NCBI GenBank assembly: GCA_000004985.1
Contig: GG738864.1
Direction: 5' to 3' (one strand)
Source of the DNA: Naegleria gruberi
Lineage: Eukaryota
DNA: 64,000 bases
In this document: positions 1-55,312 of the stretch, in pieces
How positions within the stretch are numbered: position 1 is the first letter of the stretch
How the letters are laid out: the number at the start of each line of letters is the position of its first letter
Position numbers and translations under genes: made by a program
The notes under the pieces: model-generated
The model's database searches: none
Told to the model about the DNA's origin: nothing
What the model saw: only the letters and a program-made list of their open reading frames with translations

Positions 1-1109
1 GTAATCAATGGGGAAGTATCTTAATTCCAAAATTAAATTTAACCATCATAGCATAATCATTGAACAATGAATTATTTATGCAACAATAATATATTCAATT
101 GTCATATTCATGTCAGTAATCAGTGAAGGTGACACTTCTTAACCCTTAGTATACACATCTCAATATGTAGACAGTCAATTCCACTGAAACTTGAAATATT
201 ACCTATCTAGATGATATAATGATGATTCTCCATAGTAACATGCATGTGTAATTGAATGTTGACACTTTTCATCTTGTTATATTTATAGAGATGGTATCCA
301 ACAGAGTCAGTTCACAATATTAAATATTGAAACTCATTCTATATGACATGTTTGATGTATGGTACGGGTTTTTATTGATTGTAATCAGTTTGAAATAATT
401 TGATGAAATTGACACTGTCTAGTCTCCATTACATGACAAATAGACCATAGTTTACATTCCATCTCAGTCATTTCAACGAGTTATTGATTAATTCCACCAC
501 CATTATGTTTCTCATACATTGTAGTACAGTTTATATTTCAAGAGTGATTTCTGTGTAGATTATTATAATCGTAATATCATCCAATACCAATAAAACTCAA
601 TAGAAGAGTTAATTCATCTCATTTTCAAATAGATTATTCAATATAGAACACATCTAGATAGTTTCCAGATCACAAAAGTCAAGATACTATATATGGTCTT
701 TGATTAAATTTAAAAATAGACTGCCGTTAATTACTGGAATATTAATTCAAAGCTTGTTGATCAAGCTATTGATTGAAATCAAACCGATTATTGAATATTG
801 ATCATTGAATTGGTGAATAATCACTCTCTTGATAATGTTACTTATTCATATTGCATGCAAATCAACCTGATTCAATCTACAAAGGTTGGTAGTTGCACCA
901 CTTCGTGGCGAAACTACCCATCCACGATGAATCAACATGTGATTCACTTCCATTCAACTCAATTTGACCGTTATAATCAATAAATCAATGAAATGTTTCT
1001 TTATTAGCAATACCTGTTCAATCCAATGAGTAGATTCACGTCCCAAACATTTGACTTCTAAAAGTCCATAATTCAAAAGTTAGTACTGACCTGACCTTTA
1101 AATATCTGT

Positions 1110-1159
1110 NNNNNNNNNNNNNNNNNNNNNNNNNNNNNNNNNNNNNNNNNNNNNNNNNN
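1110..1159. other. Assembly gap (50 N)
   Basis: Run of exactly 50 N directly abutting the telomere-like repeat array. Confidence 0.95.
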
Positions 1160-1590
1160 AAACCCAACCCCAAACCCAAACCCAAACCCAAACCCAAACC
1201 CAAACCCAACCCCAAACCCAAACCCAAACCCAAACCCAAACCCAAACCCAAACCCAAACCCAAACCCAAACCCAACCCAAACCCAAACCCAAACCCAAAC
1301 CCAAACCCAAACCCAAACCCAAACCCAAACCCAAACCCAAACCCAAACCCAAACCCAAACCCAAACCCAAACCCAAACCCAAACCCAAACCCAAACCCAA
1401 ACCCAAACCCAAACCCAAACCCAAACCCAAACCCAAACCCAAACCCAAACCCAAACCCAAACCCAAACCCAAACCCAAACCCAAACCCAAACCCAAACCC
1501 AAACCCAAACCCAAACCCAAACCCAAACCCAAACCCAAACCCAAACCCAAACCCAAACCCAAACCCAAACCCAAACCCAAACCCAAACCC
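1160..1590. repeat. Telomere-type hexamer array (CCCAAA)n, about 72 units. On the opposite strand this is TTTGGG, with a few CCCCAA/TTGGGG variants.
   Basis: Perfect tandem 6-mer repeats are read directly. Variant units with an extra C occur near the left edge and around 1200-1280. The 'GFGFGF' and 'GLGLGL' ORFs in the track are translation artefacts of this array. Confidence 0.9.
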
Positions 1591-2235
1591 ACGACTAAGG
1601 TCAGACCCGACATTTTGACTTTTATTCATCTTAATTAATTTTCTCAATAAATACTCATTATAAATCAATATATTATATATCAATATACTCCAAATTGAAT
1701 ATATAATCATATTATAACATAATATTACATCATTATAATAACTATTATAAGTTAATTTCATATAATAGATTAGACAATTAGAAAATCAATAAAAACATTT
1801 CAAAATCATTTCAAATCAATATATCACCTTATTAATCATGTTAATAACAATATATATCAATTTCAAATACTTTGGTATCATTTCAGGATATTTACTATTC
1901 AACTTGTCAACTGACCTATACTAACATTGAAGATAGAAATCTATACCACTTCAATTCACTTCCAATACATCTATATATGTTAATGAAATACAATAATATC
2001 AATTTGACATTCATCCATATCATACATGGTACATGGCTGATCCACTTGATACCTACAGGGATGTGACAATGACATCTACAATACAGATCATTATGAAATT
2101 GATACAGTACCTTACTAATGGTGAATAAACACTACTGTATCAGTTTCATGACAATTTGAAATCATTCAACATGTCAGGAGTGTAATCATGAGAATAATGA
2201 ATGTCAAGATAATGAAATCATATTAATTTTTAAAT

Positions 2236-2285
2236 NNNNNNNNNNNNNNNNNNNNNNNNNNNNNNNNNNNNNNNNNNNNNNNNNN
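2236..2285. other. Assembly gap (50 N)
   Basis: Run of 50 N. Confidence 0.95.
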
Positions 2286-2823
2286 TAAGGTAGAATGAGT
2301 ACAGTATACTAAGGATATTATAAATTATATTTTCAACAATTCTACAAGGTAGATATCATCATTATACATCATATATATGAGATTGGTGATGATTCTATTA
2401 ACATTCATATAATAGTACAATAAATGTTGAAAATTTAATATTTAGACATGTTGTAATTTATTTAATATACCGATTCAACATGATTAATTCATAATATCAT
2501 CTATTCATACATATATCTACAATATATTAAAATTTACATTCCAACCCAACTTTGAAATTTTAGACCTACTAGGGTAAATACCTTAATATTTTAGGCAATG
2601 CCTTATAACTTTTTGGCCTCCAACTATGTTTTAATTTTTTCACCGAATTTAGTCAACTCGTATATTGATCTATTGATTATGTGTAGATGGTATTTCAGAT
2701 ATTCCTAGTTATTGAGATATGCGAAGAAAACCTAACTTTTTTTTCATCGAGTACCTATTATCTCTAGAACCACTTTGAGTTTTTATTAGCATATAACAGT
2801 TTGTCGATGAAATTGTACCCTGA

Positions 2824-5800
2824 TTAACATATATAAGATCCAAGTTTTAAATATTGGCCATTAATAAAATGGTAATGGGTTTTCGCCATACCCAAACCCA
2901 ACCCCAAAACCCTCTGAGTTGAAATTTCTATTTCACTCTTGATTGCTTGATTAACTACATTGTCAAGAATGGTAAAGGACTTGTCAATAATGTTTTGTCC
3001 CAGTTTTTCTTCCTTATTTACCATCGAGTGAAGGGCATAAACGATAATTGAAGAAGTTGATTCAGATATTGTTTCTTCTGAAATAGTTTCAATAGCACTT
3101 GTCAAGGTATCTAGAAGTTGAGTTTGAATTTGAGATACAATTGTGGAGTCTTGTTGATCTTGAGGTAGCGTTTTTAACATTTGAGTTGCTGAAACAATTG
3201 TGTTAATTGTTTGAGAGATACTTTGAGATGCATCTCCGTCTTGAATGAAAGATGTCTTGATAATATTTGTTTGATTGGTAACTTGCTTAAATATTTCACT
3301 TATTGATGATACAATAATACTTGTAACAGTGACATTTGAATACATTATTCTTGATTCTCCAGTTGCTGAATCTATTAGTTCAATATACAAATTAACTATT
3401 TCATGGTTCATTGCTGGTAATTTGAAGGTGCCTTCTGGGGTCAGAGTAATTCCAACTTTAATTCCACTTTCCGCATCAATGTAGCCTTGCTTAATTTGAA
3501 TGGTGTTGGCTTCATTTTGACAGTTTTGACACGTCAAGGTAAAATCAGTCGTCATTGAGAAACCAGCTGAAGGAATGACTGAACATGGACACTTCTTTGG
3601 TTTGGATGCCTTAAAGTAACTAAAAGTGCTTTCAGATAGAGAAATTTCAATCAACTCATTAGAGCCACTTTGCTGTTTAACAAATGAAACCAAAAATTGA
3701 ACGGAATGATCAATACCTTCTTCCAAACCACTGACATCAATAATAATTCCACTTTGTTCTTTGTTGTTAACAATCTTTGCGTAACTTGAAAAAGGAGAAG
3801 CTGCTGCTGTTGAAATAGCATCTGATGCTGAACTAACACTCTCATATAAAATAAATCCATCTATTTTCCATTGAGTTTTAAGAAGCATTGAAGAATCTGA
3901 AACATCTCGCTCTGAATGAATTACCTCAATCGAAATCTTATCATTTCCCTTTACTATGGATTTAGAAGCAGGAGAAACATTAATAACTTTTACAATTGGT
4001 GGAGAATGAACAATATTCAAAGTTATGGAAGCTGAAACTTGTCTTTCACCTTTTGTAATTGTTAGTGTGAATTTTGGTTTTTCCAAAGAGACAAAGTCTT
4101 CCTTTTTCATAATTATCAAAGTTGACTGATCAAGGGAATACTGAGTCAATTTACCACTTGCACTGCTCCCACAATAACCATTAGATTCTGAATTGACACA
4201 ATTCCATTGCCAAACTTCCTTTTCATCCAAGTTACTTTCAGGGTCGACATAATTAACTTGAATACTGTTACTCAGAGATGATGATTCCTTCAGTGACAGC
4301 GATAACAATAGATCAGGCTGAATTGTATTGACGATAATAGAATCACTATTTGCTTGATTATTAGCAGCCACTATTGAAACCTTGAAAATAAACTTCCATT
4401 GTCCACTTGGGAACTTGTCAATAATCAAATTGTTTTTGGAATCTTTTCTGAATTTAAGGGATGGTCCACTAACTTGTTCCCAGTCAATATTAACTTGTTG
4501 ACCTATCAAGTAAGAAGGTACAAAAGCTGTCTTTTTGATAGTAACTAGCTTGCTAATTGACTTGTATGAAACTTCCTTTTCTCCAATGATAGAAACTGCT
4601 GGAAGCTCAACTTCTTGAATTTCGAAACTTAGGTACTCAACTGAGCTCACTTGGCTAGTTGCCTTACTTTTCACAATCAATGAAACATTGTAAACGCCTT
4701 GTCTTAAAATTCCCCTCTCAACCTTAATAGATGATCCTTTGGAAGAACTTATTGCAGAAAATACAGAGATAGGAATTGAATTTCCTTCAATATTCCAATA
4801 ATATTCCAATTCCTTCTTGTCACCAGAATAACTATTAGCTCCACTAATATAAATGTCCTCATTGACAAAGTAAACCTTCTTTGTGGATTTAATTTTTGCT
4901 ACAGGACTTTGTAGAGTATTTGGAATGATAATGTACATTCGTGTATAATCATTGAGTGCTCGTTTTTTAGTTTTCTTTAAGAAAACATTAGTATTTAATC
5001 TAAAGCTCAAGTTTGCATCTAGCTTGAAATCATAATCAAATTGAATCTTGAAATTGGAATTTGTCTTGTTTGTCCAGAAACATTTAGGTTCTGTTCCAAA
5101 AATTGACACATCGTCTGAATGTATAAGATTTGAACATGAAATTGAATTGGAAGTGTAGGTAGCAGGAGCAAATAGCTTGAAAGTTACACCATCAAAACTT
5201 GGAGTTATCTCTGCGTAAACACTGTCGACTAATGTATAGTTAGCATTAGGGACTGTTAAAGGTATCTCATGGGATGTCTTATTTTCACAATAGTTAGGTT
5301 TCGTACAGTTACCGGTTCCATTGCAAACATTTGGATCCTCAGATAAAATACCGAAACAAATAGGTAATGAACAATTAGCTCCGTAATATCCTTCTCTACA
5401 TCCAATACCACTGGTATTGTTAAAGGAAATTGTTTGATTTGTACTAAGGGTGTCATTAGTATTGTCTGTTGTAATGTTATTAATAAGTGATGAATTAATG
5501 TTTGAAAGATTATTTCCAGTTACATTGGCATTTTCAATTGTTAGATTATTAGAATGAAAAATTGTAGAGTTCAGGGTTTCTGTGGAATTTGATTCAGTGG
5601 AATTATCAACAGTTTCGTTAGAAATTGCTTTAGTATCGTTTGTGGTCGTATTAAGAGTGGAGTTGAGCTTATTTTCAATTGAGGAAGTATTTGAATTCTC
5701 AGTTATATTACCGACTGAAGAATTATCAAGAGTTGAATTAAGAGTATTGTTAATGGTTGTGGCATTTGAATGTTCAACAGTTGAATTAGTCCTGTCAGAT

Positions 5801-7887
5801 GTAGTACCATTAAGAGTGGTGTTGAGATCAATTGAGGAAGTATTTGAATTTTCAATTGAGGTATTTGCAAAAATAGTATTATTACTCTCGGTTATATTAC
5901 CGACTGAAGAAGAAGTATATAGAGTGGAATTAAGAGTTGTGGCATTTGAATTTTCAAGAGTTAAATTAGTACGGTCAGTACCATTAAGAGTGTTGATATT
6001 ATTTTCAATTGAGGTAGTATTTGAATTCTCAATTGAACTATTTGAAAATGACGTGTTTTCAAAATTGGAAGTATTCATAACTACTGTGGTATTACTGACT
6101 GATGTGTTTGTAACATTGGTTGAGTTTGTGTTTAAAGAAGTGGGTTGAGTTGAATTAAAACCATCAATAGTAGTTACATTACTCGAAGTATTTGAAGAAA
6201 CAATGGAATTGCTGTCCGATACAGTAGTTGAGTTGAACGTTGAGTTAGTTGACTGGGATGAGTTATCACTTGTACTTGTTGTATTGCTGAAGACAGTAAA
6301 ATTACCTGGCTCTTCATGTGTTGAGCTTGAATTTGTGTTCAAAGAGGAATTATTGAAAGTGGAATTTAGACTGGTATTCGTATTCGAAACACCCAATGTC
6401 CCGTTCAATAATGAAATGTTAGTGTTGGTTTGGTTGGAAATAGTATTCTCGAAATTAGTGCTATTTACGGTAATAGAAGTATTACTCTGTGTCAAATTAC
6501 TATATGATGCGTTTGTAAAATGCTGGGTGGAATTAGAGGTTAGGGAGGTAGTATTAAATATTGTGGAATGATTCATTGATTGTGTTGAATTAAGGGTATT
6601 ATTAATTGAGGAAACATTAGTTGAATTTCCAAATGTTGAATTAGTTGTACTATTAATTCTGAACGTAGAATTAAATTGGGTGGAATTAAGAATTGAAGTA
6701 TTACTTGGAACAGAGCAATCTAAAACAGTTAATTCATCATTGAATGGAGATTCACCACTCACAATACTATTAAGGTCGAATGAGGCTAGGAACATGTCAT
6801 AAATATCACTAGGGGAGTGGAAGAAAAAGAGTTTAAAATCATTATCTGCATCCTGTTGAGCTTCTAAAGAAGCTTCATTGCAGAATTGGGTGTTTGTGGT
6901 TTGGAACAAATATACACCAATAACATCATCTGATGCTCTTTTTGTAATTGTTGAACCAATGACTGTTATCGAAGAAGTAGTACTGTTACTTGTAGTGTTG
7001 ATTAAAGAATTTGTTAGTGAAATATCAACTTCTTGACACGCTGATCCAAGAAATCCAGGTTTACAAGCACATTTGTTAGGTAGTGTACAATTACCGTTTC
7101 CACTGCAAACAAGTGGATCTGAGGACTGAATTCCAAAACAAATTAGTAAGGGTGATTCATACACTACTATGGTTGCATTTAAAAACACAGATTGACATTG
7201 TGCTCCAATAAAACCAGCTTTGCAAGTACATACATTTGGTTTCGCGCAATAACCATTTCCACTGCAAACAAATGGATCTGAAGATTGAATTCCAAAACAA
7301 ATTGGAAAGCCGCAAATAAAAAAGTTAATAGAGTCTGTACAATCAATCTCAGAAGATAGATACACAGGTCCAGACTGACATTGTTCTCCAATAAAACCAG
7401 CTTTGCAAGAGCATTCATTTGGTTTCGCGCAATAACCATTTCCACTACAAACAAGTGGCTCTGAAGATTGAATTCCAAAACAAGATATTAAGCTGGAAGC
7501 ATTTCCTCCTTCTGGGTCTTTGTCACAAATCCCGTCCTCACATGTTAGTTGTGATAATTTTCTAATATTGAATTGATTTTCTATAAAGTATATATCTCCA
7601 TTCGACTGATCTATTGCTAAGGAAGTTGCTCCAATTAAAGAGTTTTCAGATATAATTCCATCCGGGGTTTCTCCTTGGGTACCATTTCCAAGAATTGTAA
7701 TAATTTGGTTATCACTTCCAATTGATATCTTATTAATCTGATAGTTATTGTTGCATGTGGTAGTCCAGTACAGTTCATCATTAAAGCAATCCCAGGAAAC
7801 ATAACACACAACATTAAATGTGAAGTTTCCGTACTCATTAATTTTCGTAATGTAGAAGGGACTCCGTAATCCAGAGGAATCATACAC
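2824..7887 (-). CDS. Giant secreted or surface glycoprotein, main exon. It has NHL-like beta-propeller segments, 5 or more tenascin-type EGF-like repeats of the form CFGIQSS[DE]P[LF]VCSGNGYCxxPNxCxCKxGFxGxxCQ, and a ~650-aa Ser/Thr/Asn-rich mucin-like region with dozens of N-x-S/T sequons. The exact 3' end is uncertain.
   Basis: This is a 1687-codon open frame. The tool's start codon is GTG, which lies just after the acceptor of a 35-nt GT-AG intron. The repeated Cys spacing is typical of tenascin/ComC-like EGF modules. The C-terminal ~15 codons read through a telomere-like fragment, so the true stop or last exon is probably elsewhere. Confidence 0.65.
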   Translation of the reverse strand: MYDSSGLRSPFYITKINEYGNFTFNVVCYVSWDCFNDELYWTTTCNNNYQINKISIGSDNQIITILGNGTQGETPDGIISENSLIGATSLAIDQSNGDIYFIENQFNIRKLSQLTCEDGICDKDPEGGNASSLISCFGIQSSEPLVCSGNGYCAKPNECSCKAGFIGEQCQSGPVYLSSEIDCTDSINFFICGFPICFGIQSSDPFVCSGNGYCAKPNVCTCKAGFIGAQCQSVFLNATIVVYESPLLICFGIQSSDPLVCSGNGNCTLPNKCACKPGFLGSACQEVDISLTNSLINTTSNSTTSSITVIGSTITKRASDDVIGVYLFQTTNTQFCNEASLEAQQDADNDFKLFFFHSPSDIYDMFLASFDLNSIVSGESPFNDELTVLDCSVPSNTSILNSTQFNSTFRINSTTNSTFGNSTNVSSINNTLNSTQSMNHSTIFNTTSLTSNSTQHFTNASYSNLTQSNTSITVNSTNFENTISNQTNTNISLLNGTLGVSNTNTSLNSTFNNSSLNTNSSSTHEEPGNFTVFSNTTSTSDNSSQSTNSTFNSTTVSDSNSIVSSNTSSNVTTIDGFNSTQPTSLNTNSTNVTNTSVSNTTVVMNTSNFENTSFSNSSIENSNTTSIENNINTLNGTDRTNLTLENSNATTLNSTLYTSSSVGNITESNNTIFANTSIENSNTSSIDLNTTLNGTTSDRTNSTVEHSNATTINNTLNSTLDNSSVGNITENSNTSSIENKLNSTLNTTTNDTKAISNETVDNSTESNSTETLNSTIFHSNNLTIENANVTGNNLSNINSSLINNITTDNTNDTLSTNQTISFNNTSGIGCREGYYGANCSLPICFGILSEDPNVCNGTGNCTKPNYCENKTSHEIPLTVPNANYTLVDSVYAEITPSFDGVTFKLFAPATYTSNSISCSNLIHSDDVSIFGTEPKCFWTNKTNSNFKIQFDYDFKLDANLSFRLNTNVFLKKTKKRALNDYTRMYIIIPNTLQSPVAKIKSTKKVYFVNEDIYISGANSYSGDKKELEYYWNIEGNSIPISVFSAISSSKGSSIKVERGILRQGVYNVSLIVKSKATSQVSSVEYLSFEIQEVELPAVSIIGEKEVSYKSISKLVTIKKTAFVPSYLIGQQVNIDWEQVSGPSLKFRKDSKNNLIIDKFPSGQWKFIFKVSIVAANNQANSDSIIVNTIQPDLLLSLSLKESSSLSNSIQVNYVDPESNLDEKEVWQWNCVNSESNGYCGSSASGKLTQYSLDQSTLIIMKKEDFVSLEKPKFTLTITKGERQVSASITLNIVHSPPIVKVINVSPASKSIVKGNDKISIEVIHSERDVSDSSMLLKTQWKIDGFILYESVSSASDAISTAAASPFSSYAKIVNNKEQSGIIIDVSGLEEGIDHSVQFLVSFVKQQSGSNELIEISLSESTFSYFKASKPKKCPCSVIPSAGFSMTTDFTLTCQNCQNEANTIQIKQGYIDAESGIKVGITLTPEGTFKLPAMNHEIVNLYIELIDSATGESRIMYSNVTVTSIIVSSISEIFKQVTNQTNIIKTSFIQDGDASQSISQTINTIVSATQMLKTLPQDQQDSTIVSQIQTQLLDTLTSAIETISEETISESTSSIIVYALHSMVNKEEKLGQNIIDKSFTILDNVVNQAIKSEIEISTQRVLGLGLGMAKTHYHFINGQYLKLGSYIC
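2891..2912. repeat. Short telomere-like fragment cccaaacccaaccccaaaaccc lying inside the 3' end of the giant minus-strand ORF
   Basis: About 3.5 degenerate units of the same CCCAAA family. On the minus strand it translates to the ...GLGLGMAK... tail of ORF 2824..7887. Confidence 0.6.
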
Positions 7888-7922
7888 CTACAACAGTTAA
7901 ATTGGATGAATGAATAACTTAC

Positions 7923-8486
7923 ATTTAAGAAGAGAGTACTTTTACAATAAATAAAATTGATTCGAAAATCTCTTAACATGTTATCATTTGCATAATTTGT
8001 TCTACTTCCACTTGTGATGTTATGAATCATGGGTTGATAAATATCAAGAGAATAAGCATTATCTGTGGTATGATCAACTGAAAAATGAGTAAACAATCCC
8101 GTAATTGTGGTATGTTGTTTTGAATTTGGGTCCAGTATGGTTATTCCATAAGAATCAATCCAAACCAAACTTCCCTTCCATAGATAAATCCATTGTTCAT
8201 GCAATGCAAAAACATTCCTTGAACCACTACCCAAATCTAACAGTTCAGACCTACCAGCTTGTAGCCCCTTAAATTCATATCCGTTCTGCAAGAAATAACT
8301 GGTTTTATTCTTGCTTTCAAATGCCAGGCTTGATATTGGGTATAGACTAGATGTATAAACTGTTGAAATCCGATATTTTTCTGATGCATCCACAAGACAA
8401 CATCCAACAATCACCAACAGCACCAACAACAAATACACATGCTTTGTGTACAGAGTGTATTTTTTCCTAGAGTATGAAAGACGCAT
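7923..8486 (-). CDS. Exon 1 of the same glycoprotein gene: genuine ATG, signal peptide VYLLLVLLVIVGCCLVDA, and about 170 aa of N-terminal domain
   Basis: ATG CGT CTT... on the minus strand at 8486. A hydrophobic signal follows. The donor is AAT|gtaagt at 7922/7923 and the acceptor is ...tgttgtag|GTG TAT GAT at 7888/7887. The splice keeps the frame (LFLN|VYDSSG). Confidence 0.6.
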
Positions 8487-9361
8487 TTTTTATGACTAGT
8501 ACAGTGTGTGTTGTTGGCTGAGTGTTGTCCAAATATGAAGATATCAAAAACCTTACTACAGTTATTACAGTGCCCATAATACAGCTGAGGAAGAGCGTGC
8601 ATATTGCTGCCATAACCACACAACATGGTGGAAATCAATAATAAGCGATGTGTGGCACATGTTCATTGGTTGAAATAAAAGAAGATGCCTTGCTATTCGC
8701 AAAGTAGAATGCCAAAGTTTGCATTTTCAATCTTTTTTTAAATGGATGTTACTGTAATGTAAGGAAGCTTCAAAATTTATCAAAACTCTAAATGGATATT
8801 GTTCTTAATTTGAAACTGTGCACAATCTGACAAAGCAACTGCTTAGCAACAAATGTTCAACAACTCACTCAACCTTTGAGGGATTATTCCATAATATTGA
8901 TGGTTGATAGGGAGAGCCATTATTACATCAACCCAAATTGCAAAATGAATAACAAAGGTAGATTGATAAATTGCATTCTTTTTCATTACACTTAGAATAT
9001 TAAAACCTGTAATTTATTCTGGTGATAATAGACATTTCTTATACTCTAATATCTTTTATTTTCCTCTTTTTGTTGTTTTCCCATGGAGAATAATTGTAAA
9101 GTTTCTATCATTAACATGGTAAATCTTCAATATGTAAAATTACCACAAAAGATATTTATTAGGTAGAGAGTGGATAGTTTACATGCTTCTTGTCATGTTT
9201 CCGAGTGTAAAAGTAATCAACATCATAAGAAACTTAATAAAAACATCAATTATTCAGATATAGATGATCTCCAAGAGTTACGATACAAGACTTTAAATTA
9301 TACATTTAATAATTAAATAAACATTATACGTTGTTGTTTTATTATTGTTTAATTTGTAATT

Positions 9362-10861: not shown

Positions 10862-11155
10862 TGGGACCATGAATAACCCGAAGTTGGCAAAAACACAAAA
10901 TGATGAAAAACTGATAATAAATATATTGTTTATTATGTATTTGAATAGTAGTTATGAAAGACATTTTTCAAGTTGGTGAAGTACATGTTGAGATATGGTC
11001 CATGTACATGTTGAAAATATACATGTACCTATCATCATGATAAACAATAGGGAAATGTTCGGAAGTGATTTTACCTGATGGAATCGACCATGCTGAACAA
11101 TACTAGATTGAAAGTTTTCCAAATTATCATGTGAATCTGGCAGTGATGATGATTT
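10862..11155 (+). repeat. Copy 2 of the same ~300-bp direct repeat
   Basis: See copy 1. It has the same orientation and lies about 1.5 kb downstream. No LTR hallmarks (TG..CA ends, PBS, PPT) were found. Confidence 0.6.
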
Positions 11156-11983
11156 TAGTGAAAATATTAAATTTCACTAAAATATTACTATTATCAGATT
11201 TATTTCCGCAAATATTACTATTATAATGATGATAAATAACAATGATGATGGTTGGTAGTTGTTCCGATGATGATATACCAACTTGAATTTTTCCAAATAA
11301 TAAAATTATTTCCAAATCATGATGAAGGATTAAATTCCAGAAATTACTAGTAATACTATTATTTAAATCATGATGAGATGATGTGGTGAAATTCTTGGAG
11401 TTAATAGATGTGAAATCACTCCAAGAATCAACAGAGTCGTGATGTACCTGATGTTGATCCAATATTTTTGAAATATTTTTCCAAGTTCTTGTAGATTCCA
11501 AACACCTAAGAATCGGTGTGCCCAAAGATATTTTTTGCATGGAAGAATAATGCGACCGAATATTACCGAATAATTTTTTATACGGGTTTATTTCGTATAT
11601 AACATAAAGTTTACAGATTTTATGAAGATTATTATGATATATCACAAGATGAAGACGTTACTATTAAACAAATTGTAAATCACGAAATGTTATTTGGAGA
11701 CAATCCTTCAAACAAACGTCTTAATTAGTGTGTGATTAAGAAAAGTAAACAAAGTGATGCAACCGGACTTGTGCTCACAAAAGAAACAATGGATGATTAC
11801 TCTCCTTCATCAGACAGGATGGTTAGATTTAATATTATCGGCTTTGAGATAGCCCACACTGAATTTCATAGCACAACATTTGATATTGTATTCGTTAATG
11901 GTTGGCATAAACAATATTTTGTTGTTTGTTGAAAGTTTGCTTCCTCAACAACAGAAAGTTACAAGATCAACAAATTCAACAAT

Positions 11984-12226: not shown

Positions 12227-12268
12227 CAATTAGAGGCATTTTCAACAAAGTATTGTCAATATTCTGAT

Positions 12269-12980
12269 TTGTTTTCAGAAATTCTAACAGATACATGGAA
12301 TGATACCTATAATTCTATTCAGGTATTTAAAAGTTGGGCTTTCTTTCCTTTTCAAAAGATTACTCAACCTTTCTTGTTCGATTCTGAACTTGCTCAGGAT
12401 TCTCCACATCTTCTCAGATACCTCATTTCATGTAAATATGGTAATTTATTGGCAGGTCAAATCCTTTCTCAAATATATCTGGTAGAAGATGAAGATGGAG
12501 ATTTATTTAGATTGGCAAAGCAATGTGGTGTCCCAGAGGAGAACTCTCCAAACTCAATTGAGCAATATCCTAATATTTTACTGAGAGGAAATAGAAAAGA
12601 GTTGAGCAATGTAAATACAGATCCCAGATTGTGGTATTTTCATCCTACATATAATTGTAATTATTCAAGATTTCCAAAAATACTTATTTGGCTTGGATTG
12701 GTATTTACTTTATTTATTTGTTTTAGGATTGAGATTTAAAGAAAATGTTGAAAAAGTTAAACCAATTCTCAAAGAGTATAATATTGGTCTCTATCATCAC
12801 TTTATTAGACAATTACTTCCAACTACTTTAGAAAGAATTGAATGTTCTAAAAAAGCAATTGCAAATGAAGATATTCAATTAATTAATACGACAACAGAAG
12901 AACCAGAAATGCTGTTGTGGAGAAGTCTTGCTCGTTTATTTGAGGAAGAAAAAACAGAGTATAAATCCTCTTCCTGCTAA
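12269..12980 (+). CDS. Hypothetical protein, probably 2 exons covering ORFs 12269..12739 and 12693..12980. The splice junction is unresolved.
   Basis: There are two overlapping open frames with a gtattt...ttttag intron-like segment at about 12709..12734. I could not find a frame-consistent junction. Confidence 0.3.
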
Positions 12981-47304: not shown

Positions 47305-47375
47305 GCGTCGATGGTTTAGTGGTAGAATACGGCGTTGCCATCGCCGTGACCCGGGTTCAATTCCCGGTCGACGCA
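47305..47375 (+). tRNA. tRNA-Gly (anticodon GCC)
   Basis: The 71-nt sequence is GCGTCGATGGTTTAGTGGTAGAATACGGCGTTGCCATCGCCGTGACCCGGGTTCAATTCCCGGTCGACGCA. It has a 7-bp acceptor stem GCGTCGA/TCGACGC, a D-arm, the anticodon loop TTGCCAT and a T-arm GGGTTCAATTCCC. A T-run (TTTTT) lies about 15 nt downstream. Confidence 0.88.
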
Positions 47376-52793: not shown

Positions 52794-53071
52794 CTCATAA
52801 ATTAAATCCTGATTAATCCAAACCTTCTTCTCACTCAACACTCCTATATAATCATTAATTACTAAATACAATCGATCGAGATATTCAATCGGAACAGAGG
52901 GTGAAATATTCTGTCTACTCGTACACATGAAATACAAATCATTTCTCTTAATATGAAAGAATGTTATACCAAATATCACAAAGCAAGAGGGTGCATTCTC
53001 TCCCTTCTCCTTTGCAGCCTTAATCCTCCTGAAGAATATATCCTGAACATTATCTATAATATCGTGCCTTA
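52794..53071 (-). CDS. apm4: AP-4 mu, exon 2 (longin-like N-terminal domain)
   Basis: RHDIIDNVQDIFFRRIKAAKEKGENAPSCFVIFGITFFHIKRNDLYFMCTSRQNISPSVPIEYLDRLYLVINDYIGVLSEKKVWINQDLIYE aligns with the AP-4 mu stretch [52 protein letters not shown]. Confidence 0.6.
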
Positions 53072-53122
53072 CTATTTGAATTAACAGTATATTTCTGTAT
53101 AAAAATTACTTGAATAACTCAC

Positions 53123-53180
53123 AATTACGAGATATAATCTTATCCCCTCTATTGGACAATATACACACGTGTGTGATCAT
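53123..53180 (-). CDS. apm4: AP-4 mu, exon 1 (MITHVCILSNRGDKIISRN)
   Basis: It has a real ATG and the family's N-terminal pattern M-I-x-x-x-f-I-L-x-x-x-G-D. The 51-nt intron 53072..53122 removes an in-frame TAA and keeps the frame. Confidence 0.55.
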
Positions 53181-53629
53181 TGTGCTCTCTTGGTGATGAT
53201 CAGAAAATATTTTTTAAGCAAAATAAATTTCTATGAATAAGGGTGATAGTTTACTATTATTATTATTCATATTATTTATGATGTCCAATGGATGGGAATA
53301 CTGTATAATGATGTAATACATTATTCTAGAGGAAAAATACTTTCAAAAAACAACAATTTATTCAAATCATTTAAAAAAACAGTAGTTGCCTTCAGCGGTA
53401 TCTTTTCATTCCGCCAAAATTATTTTTAACGTTCATTTTCTTCCCGCCTTTCAAATCTCGCGCCAATTTTTTCACAACGCCTGTCAGAAATCACAATAAA
53501 TAATTCATCAATATTAATTTCTCTTTGAAAAAAAAATCAACAACATACAACTCTAACTCACAACATTACCTTGTGTGTCTAAGTACAAAAACTCCCAACA
53601 CTAAACAACAATAATCTAACTTTATACAA

Positions 53630-54988
53630 ATGACAAGAGAAATCATTTCCATCTCCGTAGGTCAATGTGGTAACCAAATTGGCCAACAATTCTGGAGAAC
53701 CATCTCCCAAGAACATGGATTATCAATGGATGGTCATTCAACCAACACTGCTTCTCCACTCGAAAAGGAAAATCTCGGTGTTTACTTCTCCGAATCATCC
53801 GACAGATATGTCCCACGTGCTGTTTTAGTTGATTTGGAATCAGGTGTTTTGGATTCTGTTAAATCCTCATCCCAAGGTCAATTATTCCGTCCAGATAACT
53901 TTATCAATGCTGCCTCAGGTGCTGGTAACAATTGGGCTAAAGGTTTCTACACTGATGGTACTGAATTAATTGATGAAATTATTGATACTATTAGAAAGGA
54001 AAGTGAATCATGTGATAGTTTGCAAGGATTCCAATTAACCCACTCATTGGGTGGTGGTACTGGTTCTGGATTAGGTACCTTGTTAGTCTCCAAAATTAAG
54101 GAAGAATTCCCAGATAGAATGTTGGCTACCTTCTCAGTTTTTCCAAGTGCTAAAGTTTCTGATACCGTTGTTGAACCATACAATGCTACTTTGAGTATTC
54201 ATCAATTGATTGAAAATGCTGATCAAGTTTTCACTATTGATAATGAAGCTCTTTTTGATATTTGCACAAAGAGTTTGAAATTGGCAACTCCAAACTTTGA
54301 AGATTTGAATCAATTGATTGCTTCTGTCATGTCTGGTGTTACTTGTAGTTTGAGATTCCCAGGTCAATTGAACTCTGATTTGAGAAAATTGAGTGTTAAT
54401 TTGGTTCCATTCCCAAGATTGCACTTCTTTATGGTTTCAAATGCTCCAATTGTTGCTGAATATAACAAGCAATACCATAACTTGTCAATTGCTGAATTGA
54501 CTTCTCAAATGTTCTCCAGAAAGAATATGTTTGCTGCCTGTGATCCAACTTCAGGTAAATACTTGGCTGCTAGTGCCATTTTCAGAGGAGCCAACTTGTC
54601 AACCAGTGATATCGATCAACAAATGTTGAGTCTCCAAACCAAATCCAAAGATAATTTTGTTTCATGGATTCCAAACAATATCAAATCATCTGTTTGTGAT
54701 GTAGCTCCAAAGAATTTGCCAGTTTCTGGAACTTTCATTGGTAACACAACTGCCATTCAAGATGTTTTCAAGAGAATTGGAACTCAATTCCATCAAATGT
54801 ATAAGAAGAAGGCCTTCTTGCATTCTTATATTAATGAAGGAATGGACCAAATGGAATTCACTGAAGCTGAAGCTAATATGAATGATTTGATTAATGAATA
54901 TCAACAATATCAAGATGCTACCATTGAAGATGATGTTGATGGTGGTTTTGGAGGTAATGCTGATGATGAATTGCAACAACAAGAATAA
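53630..54988 (+). CDS. tubB: Beta-tubulin, a highly divergent single-exon gene
   Basis: The motifs are [28 protein letters not shown] and [34 protein letters not shown]. By eye it is about 65% identical to canonical beta-tubulin. It has an extra Thr after Met1 and an acidic C-terminal tail. Confidence 0.9.
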
Positions 54989-55312
54989 TTTTAAAAAGTT
55001 TTAATTTTCAAGAATAAGAAATTGTGTGTCTAGTAGTGTATTTTATGGAATATTCTATGGATTGTCTCGATAGAATTTGTAAATATGCTAATTCATGTAA
55101 TAAAAAGAGAATCTGCTAGGTTTTTAAAGTTTATTTGTCGAGTTTATTAGATGTGAAACTAAACTATTTGGCTTAACAGATTTTTTAATTATCTGGAGAC
55201 GAAAATGGATAAATACTAGAAAATACACATCCAAAATTGGTATTCTTCTTTCTTTGCCAAATCACAATCCACAAACACTTTCAAAAATTTAAAAAAACAA
55301 AATTCGAAACTA

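What the first reader, a model, noticed from the sequence alone, without database searches (positions are those of the whole stretch)
1110..2285. Telomere-type (CCCAAA)n array about 1.1 kb inside the scaffold, between two 50-N gaps
The array is 431 bp of TTTGGG/CCCAAA units with TTGGGG variants, and its C-rich strand reads left to right. That orientation is what a left chromosome end gives. Yet 1.1 kb of unrelated sequence precedes it, and gaps bracket the array plus its flanking block. There are two readings. It may be a true chromosome terminus that was mis-scaffolded onto another contig. It may instead be a genuine interstitial telomeric sequence. If the organism is a dictyostelid the repeat type itself is notable. 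The best-known member, D. discoideum, lacks simple telomeric repeats.
Basis: partly seen in the sequence, partly recalled or inferred. Interest (0 to 1): 0.6.

Follow-up and report, generated by a model that had tools for sequence, protein, structure and literature searches.

The report
Naegleria gruberi telomere beside misplaced contig
The repeat is the already-reported TTTGGG telomere of the amoeba Naegleria gruberi, most likely at a real chromosome end, and the 1.1 kb of sequence outside it is most likely a small contig that the assembly put in the wrong place.

Summary
Window 1160-1591 is a 432-bp array of 72 AAACCC units at 98% match. It has two AACCCC variants and one 5-mer. It directly abuts a 50-N gap, and a second 50-N gap lies at 2236-2285.

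The organism guess is wrong. Four proteins encoded in the window are exact matches to Naegleria gruberi NEG-M proteins on a 441,990-bp scaffold. It is neither a dictyostelid nor a ciliate. TTTGGG was already reported as the candidate N. gruberi telomere repeat (Fulneckova et al. 2013).

The array's polarity, its purity next to the unique DNA, its position at a contig edge, its closeness to the window start and the gene-free AT-rich DNA inside it all favour a real chromosome end. The 1,109-bp contig to its left would then be misplaced, or it could be an alternative haplotype. That cannot be proven without reads.

One new point: 1.3 kb inside the array, a 22-27-bp telomere-like tract (2886-2912, same polarity) starts within two bases of where gene NAEGRDRAFT_48552 loses homology to its paralogs. 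The paralogs continue for about 330 more residues, including a membrane anchor. This looks like an old chromosome break healed by telomerase and later capped by a new distal block.

Interest is low to modest.

The parts
1..1109 (.). Contig A: unique AT-rich (30% GC) non-coding sequence lying outside the telomere array. Its placement is doubtful.
   Evidence: No ORF longer than 62 aa and no Pfam, Rfam or tRNA hit. No significant similarity to contigs B or C or to the rest of the window. It is separated from the array by a 50-N gap.
1110..1159 (.). 50-N scaffold gap. It hides the outer junction of the array.
1160..1591 (+). Telomere array: (CCCAAA)n on the + strand, equal to (TTTGGG)n running 5'->3' leftward on the - strand. 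72 units.
   Evidence: TRF 98% match, score 843. Unit census. 73 pattern matches against 0.07 expected. The motif equals the published N. gruberi candidate telomere.
1592..2235 (.). Contig B: unique subtelomeric DNA at 24.7% GC, non-coding, directly joined to the array.
2236..2285 (.). Second 50-N scaffold gap.
2286..2885 (.). Left end of the large contig C: AT-rich (19-27% GC) non-coding DNA between the gap and the short internal telomere tract. With contig B it forms a block of at least 1.3 kb distal to the truncated gene.
2886..2912 (-). Short internal telomere-like tract. The minus strand reads GGGTTTTGGGGTTGGGTTTGGG(TATG), the same polarity as the terminal array. Read as a fossil of an earlier telomere.
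   Evidence: It is the only tract outside the array that reaches 20/22 identity to perfect repeats; the next best in 64 kb is 17/22. Chance expectation is 0.07 sites per window. It begins within two bases of the last codon that is homologous to the paralogs.
2824..8489 (-). Gene NAEGRDRAFT_48552 (XP_002677934, 1765 aa): signal peptide, EGF and REJ domains. It is truncated at its 3' end and is the last gene before the chromosome end. The 8489 boundary is approximate, because the exons for the first 128 residues were not mapped.
   Evidence: Residues 129-1765 map at 100% identity to 7737-2827. Identity of the protein. Pfam REJ and EGF hits. Signal-peptide-like N-terminus and no C-terminal transmembrane helix. 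Paralogs continue 324-339 aa past the homology end at 2914. No remnant of that part is found in 1-2913.

Best explanation
The window comes from a 441,990-bp scaffold of Naegleria gruberi strain NEG-M. The 432-bp (CCCAAA)n array is this species' ordinary telomerase-type telomere (TTTGGG, G-strand running outward). The 1,109-bp contig A, drawn outside the telomere, does not belong there. It is a small, gene-free contig, presumably tied to this end only by weak read-pair information. Two gaps of exactly 50 N look like placeholder sizes rather than measurements. Its real position is probably between B and C, or at another locus. Shown: the array, its polarity, its purity, the species, and that the motif is already published. 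Inferred: that the array is physically terminal and that contig A is misplaced.
For: Species: four window ORFs are exact matches to N. gruberi NEG-M proteins on one 441,990-bp record. Gene NAEGRDRAFT_48552 maps at 100% identity. The nearest relatives of the tubulin are Naegleria and Willaertia. Long ORFs under the standard genetic code argue against a ciliate.

Motif: TTTGGG was reported as the candidate telomere repeat of N. gruberi, judged from position and orientation in the genome assembly.

Terminal character:
- The polarity is correct for a left end.
- The array lies at a contig edge abutting a gap.
- The 312 bp next to the unique DNA are perfect repeats, and all variants lie in the outer 116 bp. 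That fits a maintained telomere or low-quality read ends, not a decaying internal relic.
- The only two gaps in 64 kb both lie within 2.3 kb of this end.
- The inner 1.3 kb is gene-free at 19-27% GC.
- A second short telomere tract of the same polarity sits at a truncated gene 1.3 kb inside, an architecture typical of subtelomeres.
- An internal array placed at random in a 64-kb window would lie within about 1.2 kb of the window's left edge, in left-end polarity, in roughly 1% of cases. This is my own arithmetic: 1160/64000 x 0.5.
Against: The outer junction of the array is not sequenced, because it is a gap. Physical terminality is therefore not shown. The scaffolder did have some reason to put contig A on that side. 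I could not establish that window position 1 is the scaffold start. The meaning of a 50-N gap in this assembly is my assumption. No overlap or homology links contig A to the B/C gap, so the alternative position is unproven. Fulneckova et al. note that many genomes also carry large internal telomere-repeat blocks.
Confidence: 0.6

Rival explanations
1. The array is a real telomere on only some chromosome copies. One homologue, or a sub-population of the culture, ends at 1592 after a terminal deletion healed by telomerase. Another copy continues from B into contig A and beyond. The assembler then keeps both branches: B with its telomere, and A as the continuation. It places A on the outer side with a minimal gap.
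For: This explains why contig A was placed outside the array. It also explains a placeholder-sized gap, since the true A-B distance would be about zero or negative once the array is inserted. The same chromosome end shows evidence of an older healing event at 2886-2912.
Against: There is no direct evidence. The right end of A and the left end of B show no overlap. No read data are available. Ploidy and heterozygosity of NEG-M were not examined here.
Confidence: 0.2
2. The array is a genuine interstitial telomeric sequence. Contig A is correctly placed, and the chromosome continues to the left of the array in all copies. The array would be a relic of an end-to-end fusion, or of telomerase-mediated repair.
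For: The scaffold order as deposited. Large internal blocks of telomere repeats are reported in many genome assemblies. A short internal tract demonstrably exists 1.3 kb away.
Against: At 98-100% purity over 432 bp, the array is unlike an old internal relic. The array ends at a contig edge instead of being bridged. Contig A's inner end carries no inverted G-rich array, which a head-to-head fusion would leave. The closeness of the array to the window edge and the gene-free AT-rich flank fit a terminus.
Confidence: 0.12
3. The array is not Naegleria sequence at this locus at all. It would be a contaminant (for example ciliate DNA), or a chimeric clone or assembly artefact.
For: TTTGGG/TTGGGG mixtures are also the Paramecium telomere type (from my own knowledge). 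The contig carrying the array is only 1,076 bp long and is isolated by gaps.
Against: The motif was found at N. gruberi assembly termini by others. A related telomere-like tract lies inside the large contig, fused to a bona fide N. gruberi gene. Contig B has the same AT-rich non-coding character as the adjoining 2286-2885.
Confidence: 0.03

Closest known systems
Candidate telomere repeat TTTGGG of Naegleria gruberi (Fulneckova et al. 2013, Genome Biol Evol 5:468, PMC3622300)
   Same: Same species, same motif and the same kind of evidence (position and orientation in the public assembly). The array here is one instance of what they described.
   Different: They reported the motif only. The library holds no per-scaffold list, because the supplement is not available. 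They give no account of this end's misplaced contig or of the internal tract at the truncated gene. Experimental proof of terminal position is still lacking, by their own statement.
Paramecium macronuclear telomeres (mixed TTGGGG/TTTGGG repeats; from my own knowledge, not tested here)
   Same: The same two hexamer variants, added by telomerase.
   Different: The organism here uses the standard genetic code, with long ORFs containing no in-frame TAA or TAG, and its proteins are exact N. gruberi matches. TTTGGG makes up 66 of the 72 units here, with only two TTGGGG-type variants. There is no evidence of programmed chromosome fragmentation.
Chromosome breakage healed by de novo telomere addition, as in truncated subtelomeric genes of Plasmodium falciparum and human terminal deletions (from my own knowledge)
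   Same: A gene loses its distal part. Telomere repeats in the outward polarity begin at the breakpoint (2912/2913), with a possible 1-3 nt G-rich microhomology.
   Different: Here only 22-27 bp of repeats survive, and they are no longer terminal. At least 1.3 kb of unrelated DNA and a new telomere lie outside them, so a second event is required. No experimental lineage shows the event.
Short internal telomere tracts between subtelomeric blocks, as in yeast X-(TG1-3)-Y' ends and human subtelomeric (TTAGGG)n islands (from my own knowledge)
   Same: The order is: proximal unique DNA, short telomere tract, distal block, terminal telomere, all in one polarity.
   Different: It is not shown that the block 1592-2885 is shared with other chromosome ends. 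It has no ORF and no detectable family.

Membership tests
Telomerase-type terminal telomere array | Tandem array of a short T/G-rich unit | tested here: met
   72 units of TTTGGG at 98% match.
Telomerase-type terminal telomere array | G-rich strand runs 5'->3' away from the adjoining unique DNA, toward the end | tested here: met
   The C-rich strand lies on + to the left of unique contig B.
Telomerase-type terminal telomere array | Same motif at the other chromosome ends of the species | not tested
   Reported by Fulneckova et al. 2013. The rest of the N. gruberi assembly could not be reached with these tools.
Telomerase-type terminal telomere array | Physically terminal (nothing distal; Bal31-sensitive) | tested here: inconclusive
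   The array ends in a 50-N gap, with a 1,109-bp contig drawn outside it.
Interstitial telomeric sequence (for the 432-bp array) | Sequenced unique DNA contiguous on both sides of the repeats | tested here: not met
   The left side is a gap. Only the right junction (1591/1592) is sequenced.
Interstitial telomeric sequence (for the 2886-2912 tract) | Sequenced unique DNA contiguous on both sides of the repeats | tested here: met
   The tract lies about 600 bp inside the large contig, flanked by the gene on one side and AT-rich DNA on the other.
Healed chromosome break (de novo telomere addition) | Homology to intact relatives stops abruptly at the repeats, and the relatives continue | tested here: met
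   BLASTP alignments to P0278 and P0137 both end at the Gln codon 2914-2916. The paralogs continue for 324 and 339 aa, including a transmembrane helix. P0129 is an ENA metagenome call, so I take it to be an unspliced ORF that reads through this point; if so, the paralog has no intron there.
Healed chromosome break (de novo telomere addition) | The lost distal part is absent from the DNA beyond the repeats | tested here: met
   tblastn with five paralog C-termini finds nothing in 1-2913. The two 50-N gaps could still hide sequence.
Healed chromosome break (de novo telomere addition) | The repeats at the breakpoint form the chromosome terminus | tested here: not met
   At least 1.3 kb of non-telomeric DNA and the long array lie distal to the tract. 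The claim is therefore a fossil healing event followed by a second event, not a current healed end.
   Exact matches to N. gruberi NEG-M proteins XP_002677854, XP_002677935, XP_002677936 and XP_002677848 (all), and XP_002677934.
Ciliate macronuclear chromosome end | Ciliate nuclear genetic code (TAA/TAG read as sense) | tested here: not met
   ORFs of 1,687, 1,957 and 1,103 codons stay open under the standard code and carry Pfam domains.

The most novel reading that the evidence does not exclude
This chromosome end of N. gruberi is dynamic and has been rebuilt by telomerase more than once. First, a break inside gene NAEGRDRAFT_48552 was healed by de novo telomere addition, leaving the fossil tract at 2886-2912. 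Second, a block of at least 1.3 kb with a new telomere was captured. Third, the present scaffold conflict, with contig A outside the array, reflects living heterogeneity: some chromosome copies end at 1592 and others continue. That would be the first sequence-level evidence of chromosome healing and variable ends in Heterolobosea.
Probability: 0.2. Interest if true: 0.5.

Novelty: already known. Interest (0 to 1): 0.22.

Why it matters
There is little to gain for telomere biology. The repeat type of N. gruberi is already in the literature, and the odd placement is most likely a scaffolding error in a 2010 draft assembly. It is worth flagging to anyone who uses this scaffold end.

The modest value lies in two places. 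First, this end gives a clean telomere-to-subtelomere junction (1591/1592). That junction could serve as a probe or primer site for the experimental confirmation (Bal31, TRAP, long reads) that Fulneckova et al. said is still missing. Second, the truncated gene with a fossil telomere tract is a concrete, testable trace of chromosome breakage and healing in a lineage where nothing is known about end dynamics.

Tried and rejected
- **Ciliate (Paramecium) origin.** This was my first guess from the TTTGGG/TTGGGG mixture. I rejected it because ORFs of up to 1,957 codons stay open under the standard code and the proteins are exact N. gruberi matches.
- **Dictyostelid origin.** Rejected on the same evidence.
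- **Fixing the window's position in the scaffold from accession numbers.** The GenBank protein numbers (EFC45104, EFC45110, EFC45190-45192) do not follow position and appear grouped by strand. The offsets fit any position, so I dropped this argument.
- **Fetching the NCBI scaffold, or an independent assembly of this end.** The look-up of encoding contigs has no N. gruberi record for the RGS protein. It returns only a 2.2-kb ENA metagenome contig for the tubulin, which is 98.4% identical in DNA and so comes from a different strain.
- **The search for homologous proteins with the gene's C-terminus.** Two searches (700 aa and 257 aa) returned nothing. They missed even the identical protein P0128, which is in the collection. 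I treat this as a tool miss, not as evidence.
- **Exact-pattern scans of JGI metagenomes.** One used the subtelomere junction and one used a hairpin-like 31-mer from contig A. Both returned no matches.
- **Overlap or homology among contig ends A, B and C in either orientation.** Nothing exceeded shuffled controls at the ends. Whole-contig A versus B scores are slightly high (0.5-1.5% of shuffles), but the aligned stretches are short AT-rich runs.
- **RNA genes and domains in 1-3000.** Rfam gave only sub-threshold chance hits. There are no tRNAs and no Pfam hits in the small ORFs. The hairpin at 888-918 is not significant (z = -1.76).
- **The idea that the telomere-like tract is the 5' end of an intron with the missing exons further left.** tblastn finds no such exons, and the paralog apparently has an uninterrupted ORF across this point. 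Sequence hidden in the gaps cannot be excluded.

Full report
**Observation.** The feature is present as described. Window 1160-1591 is a 432-bp tandem array with period 6, 72.2 copies, 98% matches and consensus AAACCC. All variants lie in the outer 116 bp, and the 312 bp at 1276-1587 next to the unique DNA are perfect. A telomere 15-mer with up to two mismatches matches 73 times, against 0.07 expected from shuffles. The two gaps are exactly 50 N each (1110-1159 and 2236-2285) and are the only gaps in the 64 kb. The array touches the left gap directly. Its C-rich strand reads left to right, which is the polarity of a left chromosome end.

**Organism.** The mixture of TTTGGG and TTGGGG first suggested a ciliate. 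However, 40 ORFs of at least 150 codons, the longest 1,957 codons, stay open under the standard genetic code, and they carry ordinary eukaryotic domains. A beta-tubulin in the window has its closest full-length relatives in Naegleria fowleri (88%), N. gruberi and N. lovaniensis paralogs, and Willaertia. An exact-sequence look-up settled the matter. Four window ORFs are identical to N. gruberi NEG-M proteins XP_002677854, XP_002677935, XP_002677936 and XP_002677848, all on one 441,990-bp record. A fifth, XP_002677934, maps at 100% identity.

**What is known.** Fulneckova et al. 2013 (PMC3622300) searched public genome assemblies for terminal minisatellites. They judged candidates by position and orientation, and they named TTTGGG as the unexpected candidate telomere repeat of N. 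gruberi. They stressed that experiments are still needed to prove terminal position, and that many genomes also hold internal blocks. Further searches of the held literature found nothing more on Naegleria telomeres. The repeat type here is thus already on record, and this array is one instance of it.

**Terminal or interstitial.** The sequenced junction (1591/1592) joins perfect repeats to unique, gene-free DNA of 19-27% GC, which runs through contig B and the first 600 bp of the large contig. Several points favour a real end:
- The polarity is right for a left end.
- The array sits at a contig edge, as expected when reads run out inside a repeat.
- It is pure next to the unique DNA and variable only at the outer edge. 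That fits a maintained telomere or poor read ends, not a decaying relic.
- The only two gaps of the window crowd into this 2.3 kb.
- A second short telomere tract of the same polarity lies 1.3 kb inside.
- An internal array dropped at random into a 64-kb window would lie this close to the left edge, in this polarity, about 1% of the time. This is my own arithmetic.

Contig A (1-1109) is unique and non-coding. It has no RNA gene and no domain, and no overlap or homology with B or C in either orientation. Two gaps of exactly 50 N look like placeholders rather than measured distances. That is my inference, and I could not check the assembler's convention. I conclude that the array most likely caps a true chromosome end and that contig A was placed on the wrong side, at 0.6 confidence. 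A variant reading, at 0.2, is that contig A continues the chromosome in another homologue or sub-population while the sequenced copy ends at 1592. A true interstitial array gets 0.12 and contamination or chimera 0.03. None of these can be separated without reads, because the outer junction is a gap.

**A second tract and a truncated gene.** Outside the array, the only stretch in 64 kb that reaches 20/22 identity to perfect repeats is 2886-2912. Its minus strand reads GGGTTTTGGGGTTGGGTTTGGG, the same polarity as the terminal array. It lies in the last 29 codons of the annotated gene NAEGRDRAFT_48552. This is a 1,765-aa protein with a signal peptide, EGF repeats and a REJ domain.

A full HMMER scan found N. 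gruberi paralogs: NAEGRDRAFT_71165 (1,843 aa) with its ENA counterpart P0129, and NAEGRDRAFT_76569. BLASTP alignments to both N. gruberi paralogs stop at the same residue, the Gln codon 2914-2916. The tract begins at 2912. The paralogs then continue for 324 and 339 residues, including a transmembrane helix and a cytoplasmic tail. The window gene has no transmembrane helix. tblastn with five paralog C-termini finds homology down to 2914 and nothing in 1-2913. P0129 comes from an ENA metagenome, so I take it to be an unspliced ORF call. It reads straight through this point, which argues that the paralog has no intron there.

The simplest reading is that an old break inside the gene was healed by telomerase. 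Later, a distal block of at least 1.3 kb with its own telomere was acquired, by recombination or capture, and this left a short internal tract. The first step is well supported by sequence. The second step is inferred. Exons hidden in the two gaps remain a formal alternative.

**Dead ends.**
- The NCBI scaffold itself and any independent assembly of this end could not be reached.
- Two word-indexed protein searches returned nothing, even for a protein known to be in the collection.
- Two metagenome scans were empty.
- Accession numbering does not fix the window's position in the scaffold.

**Verdict.** The telomere type is already known, and the layout is most likely an assembly artefact. The truncated gene with a fossil telomere tract is a small new observation of a known kind. 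Interest is about 0.2.

Noticed in passing
window 2886-2916, with gene 2824-8489 (-): A 22-27-bp telomere-like tract sits exactly where gene NAEGRDRAFT_48552 loses homology to its paralogs, which continue for about 330 aa including a transmembrane anchor. The annotated C-terminus (RVLGLGLGMAKTHYHFINGQYLKLGSYIC) is read from telomere repeats and AT-rich DNA. This is probably a fossil of a healed chromosome break.
   Followed up: yes
L001 1-2173 versus window 52843-55020: An ENA metagenome contig (ERZ929261, run ERR1078381, project PRJEB11402) is 98.4% identical in DNA to the tubulin locus and encodes the identical protein. A close relative of N. gruberi NEG-M is therefore present in that sample, and it could serve as an independent comparison for this chromosome end.
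   Followed up: partly
window 53630-54988 (+): The beta-tubulin XP_002677854 is divergent. It is 88% identical to N. fowleri FDP41_012527 but only about 72% identical to another N. gruberi beta-tubulin, and about 62-65% identical to typical eukaryotic beta-tubulins. It may be one of the separate mitotic tubulins described for Naegleria. That link is from memory and was not tested.
   Followed up: no
window 11130-11657 (-) and 12227-12977 (+): ORFs of 176 and 170/121 codons lie between the REJ-domain gene and the RGS gene. Those two genes carry consecutive UniProt accessions (D2VD89, D2VD90), which seem to follow position, so these ORFs may be unannotated. They could be missed genes or chance ORFs.
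   Followed up: no
window 47305-47375 (+): A tRNA-Gly (GCC) gene, the only tRNA found in the window.
   Followed up: no
searches, not a window feature: In the 90%-identity protein collection, the tubulin's cluster is represented by a 32-aa fragment. The word-indexed search also fails to return the identical 1,765-aa protein. Negative results from that search are therefore unreliable for N. gruberi proteins.
   Followed up: partly
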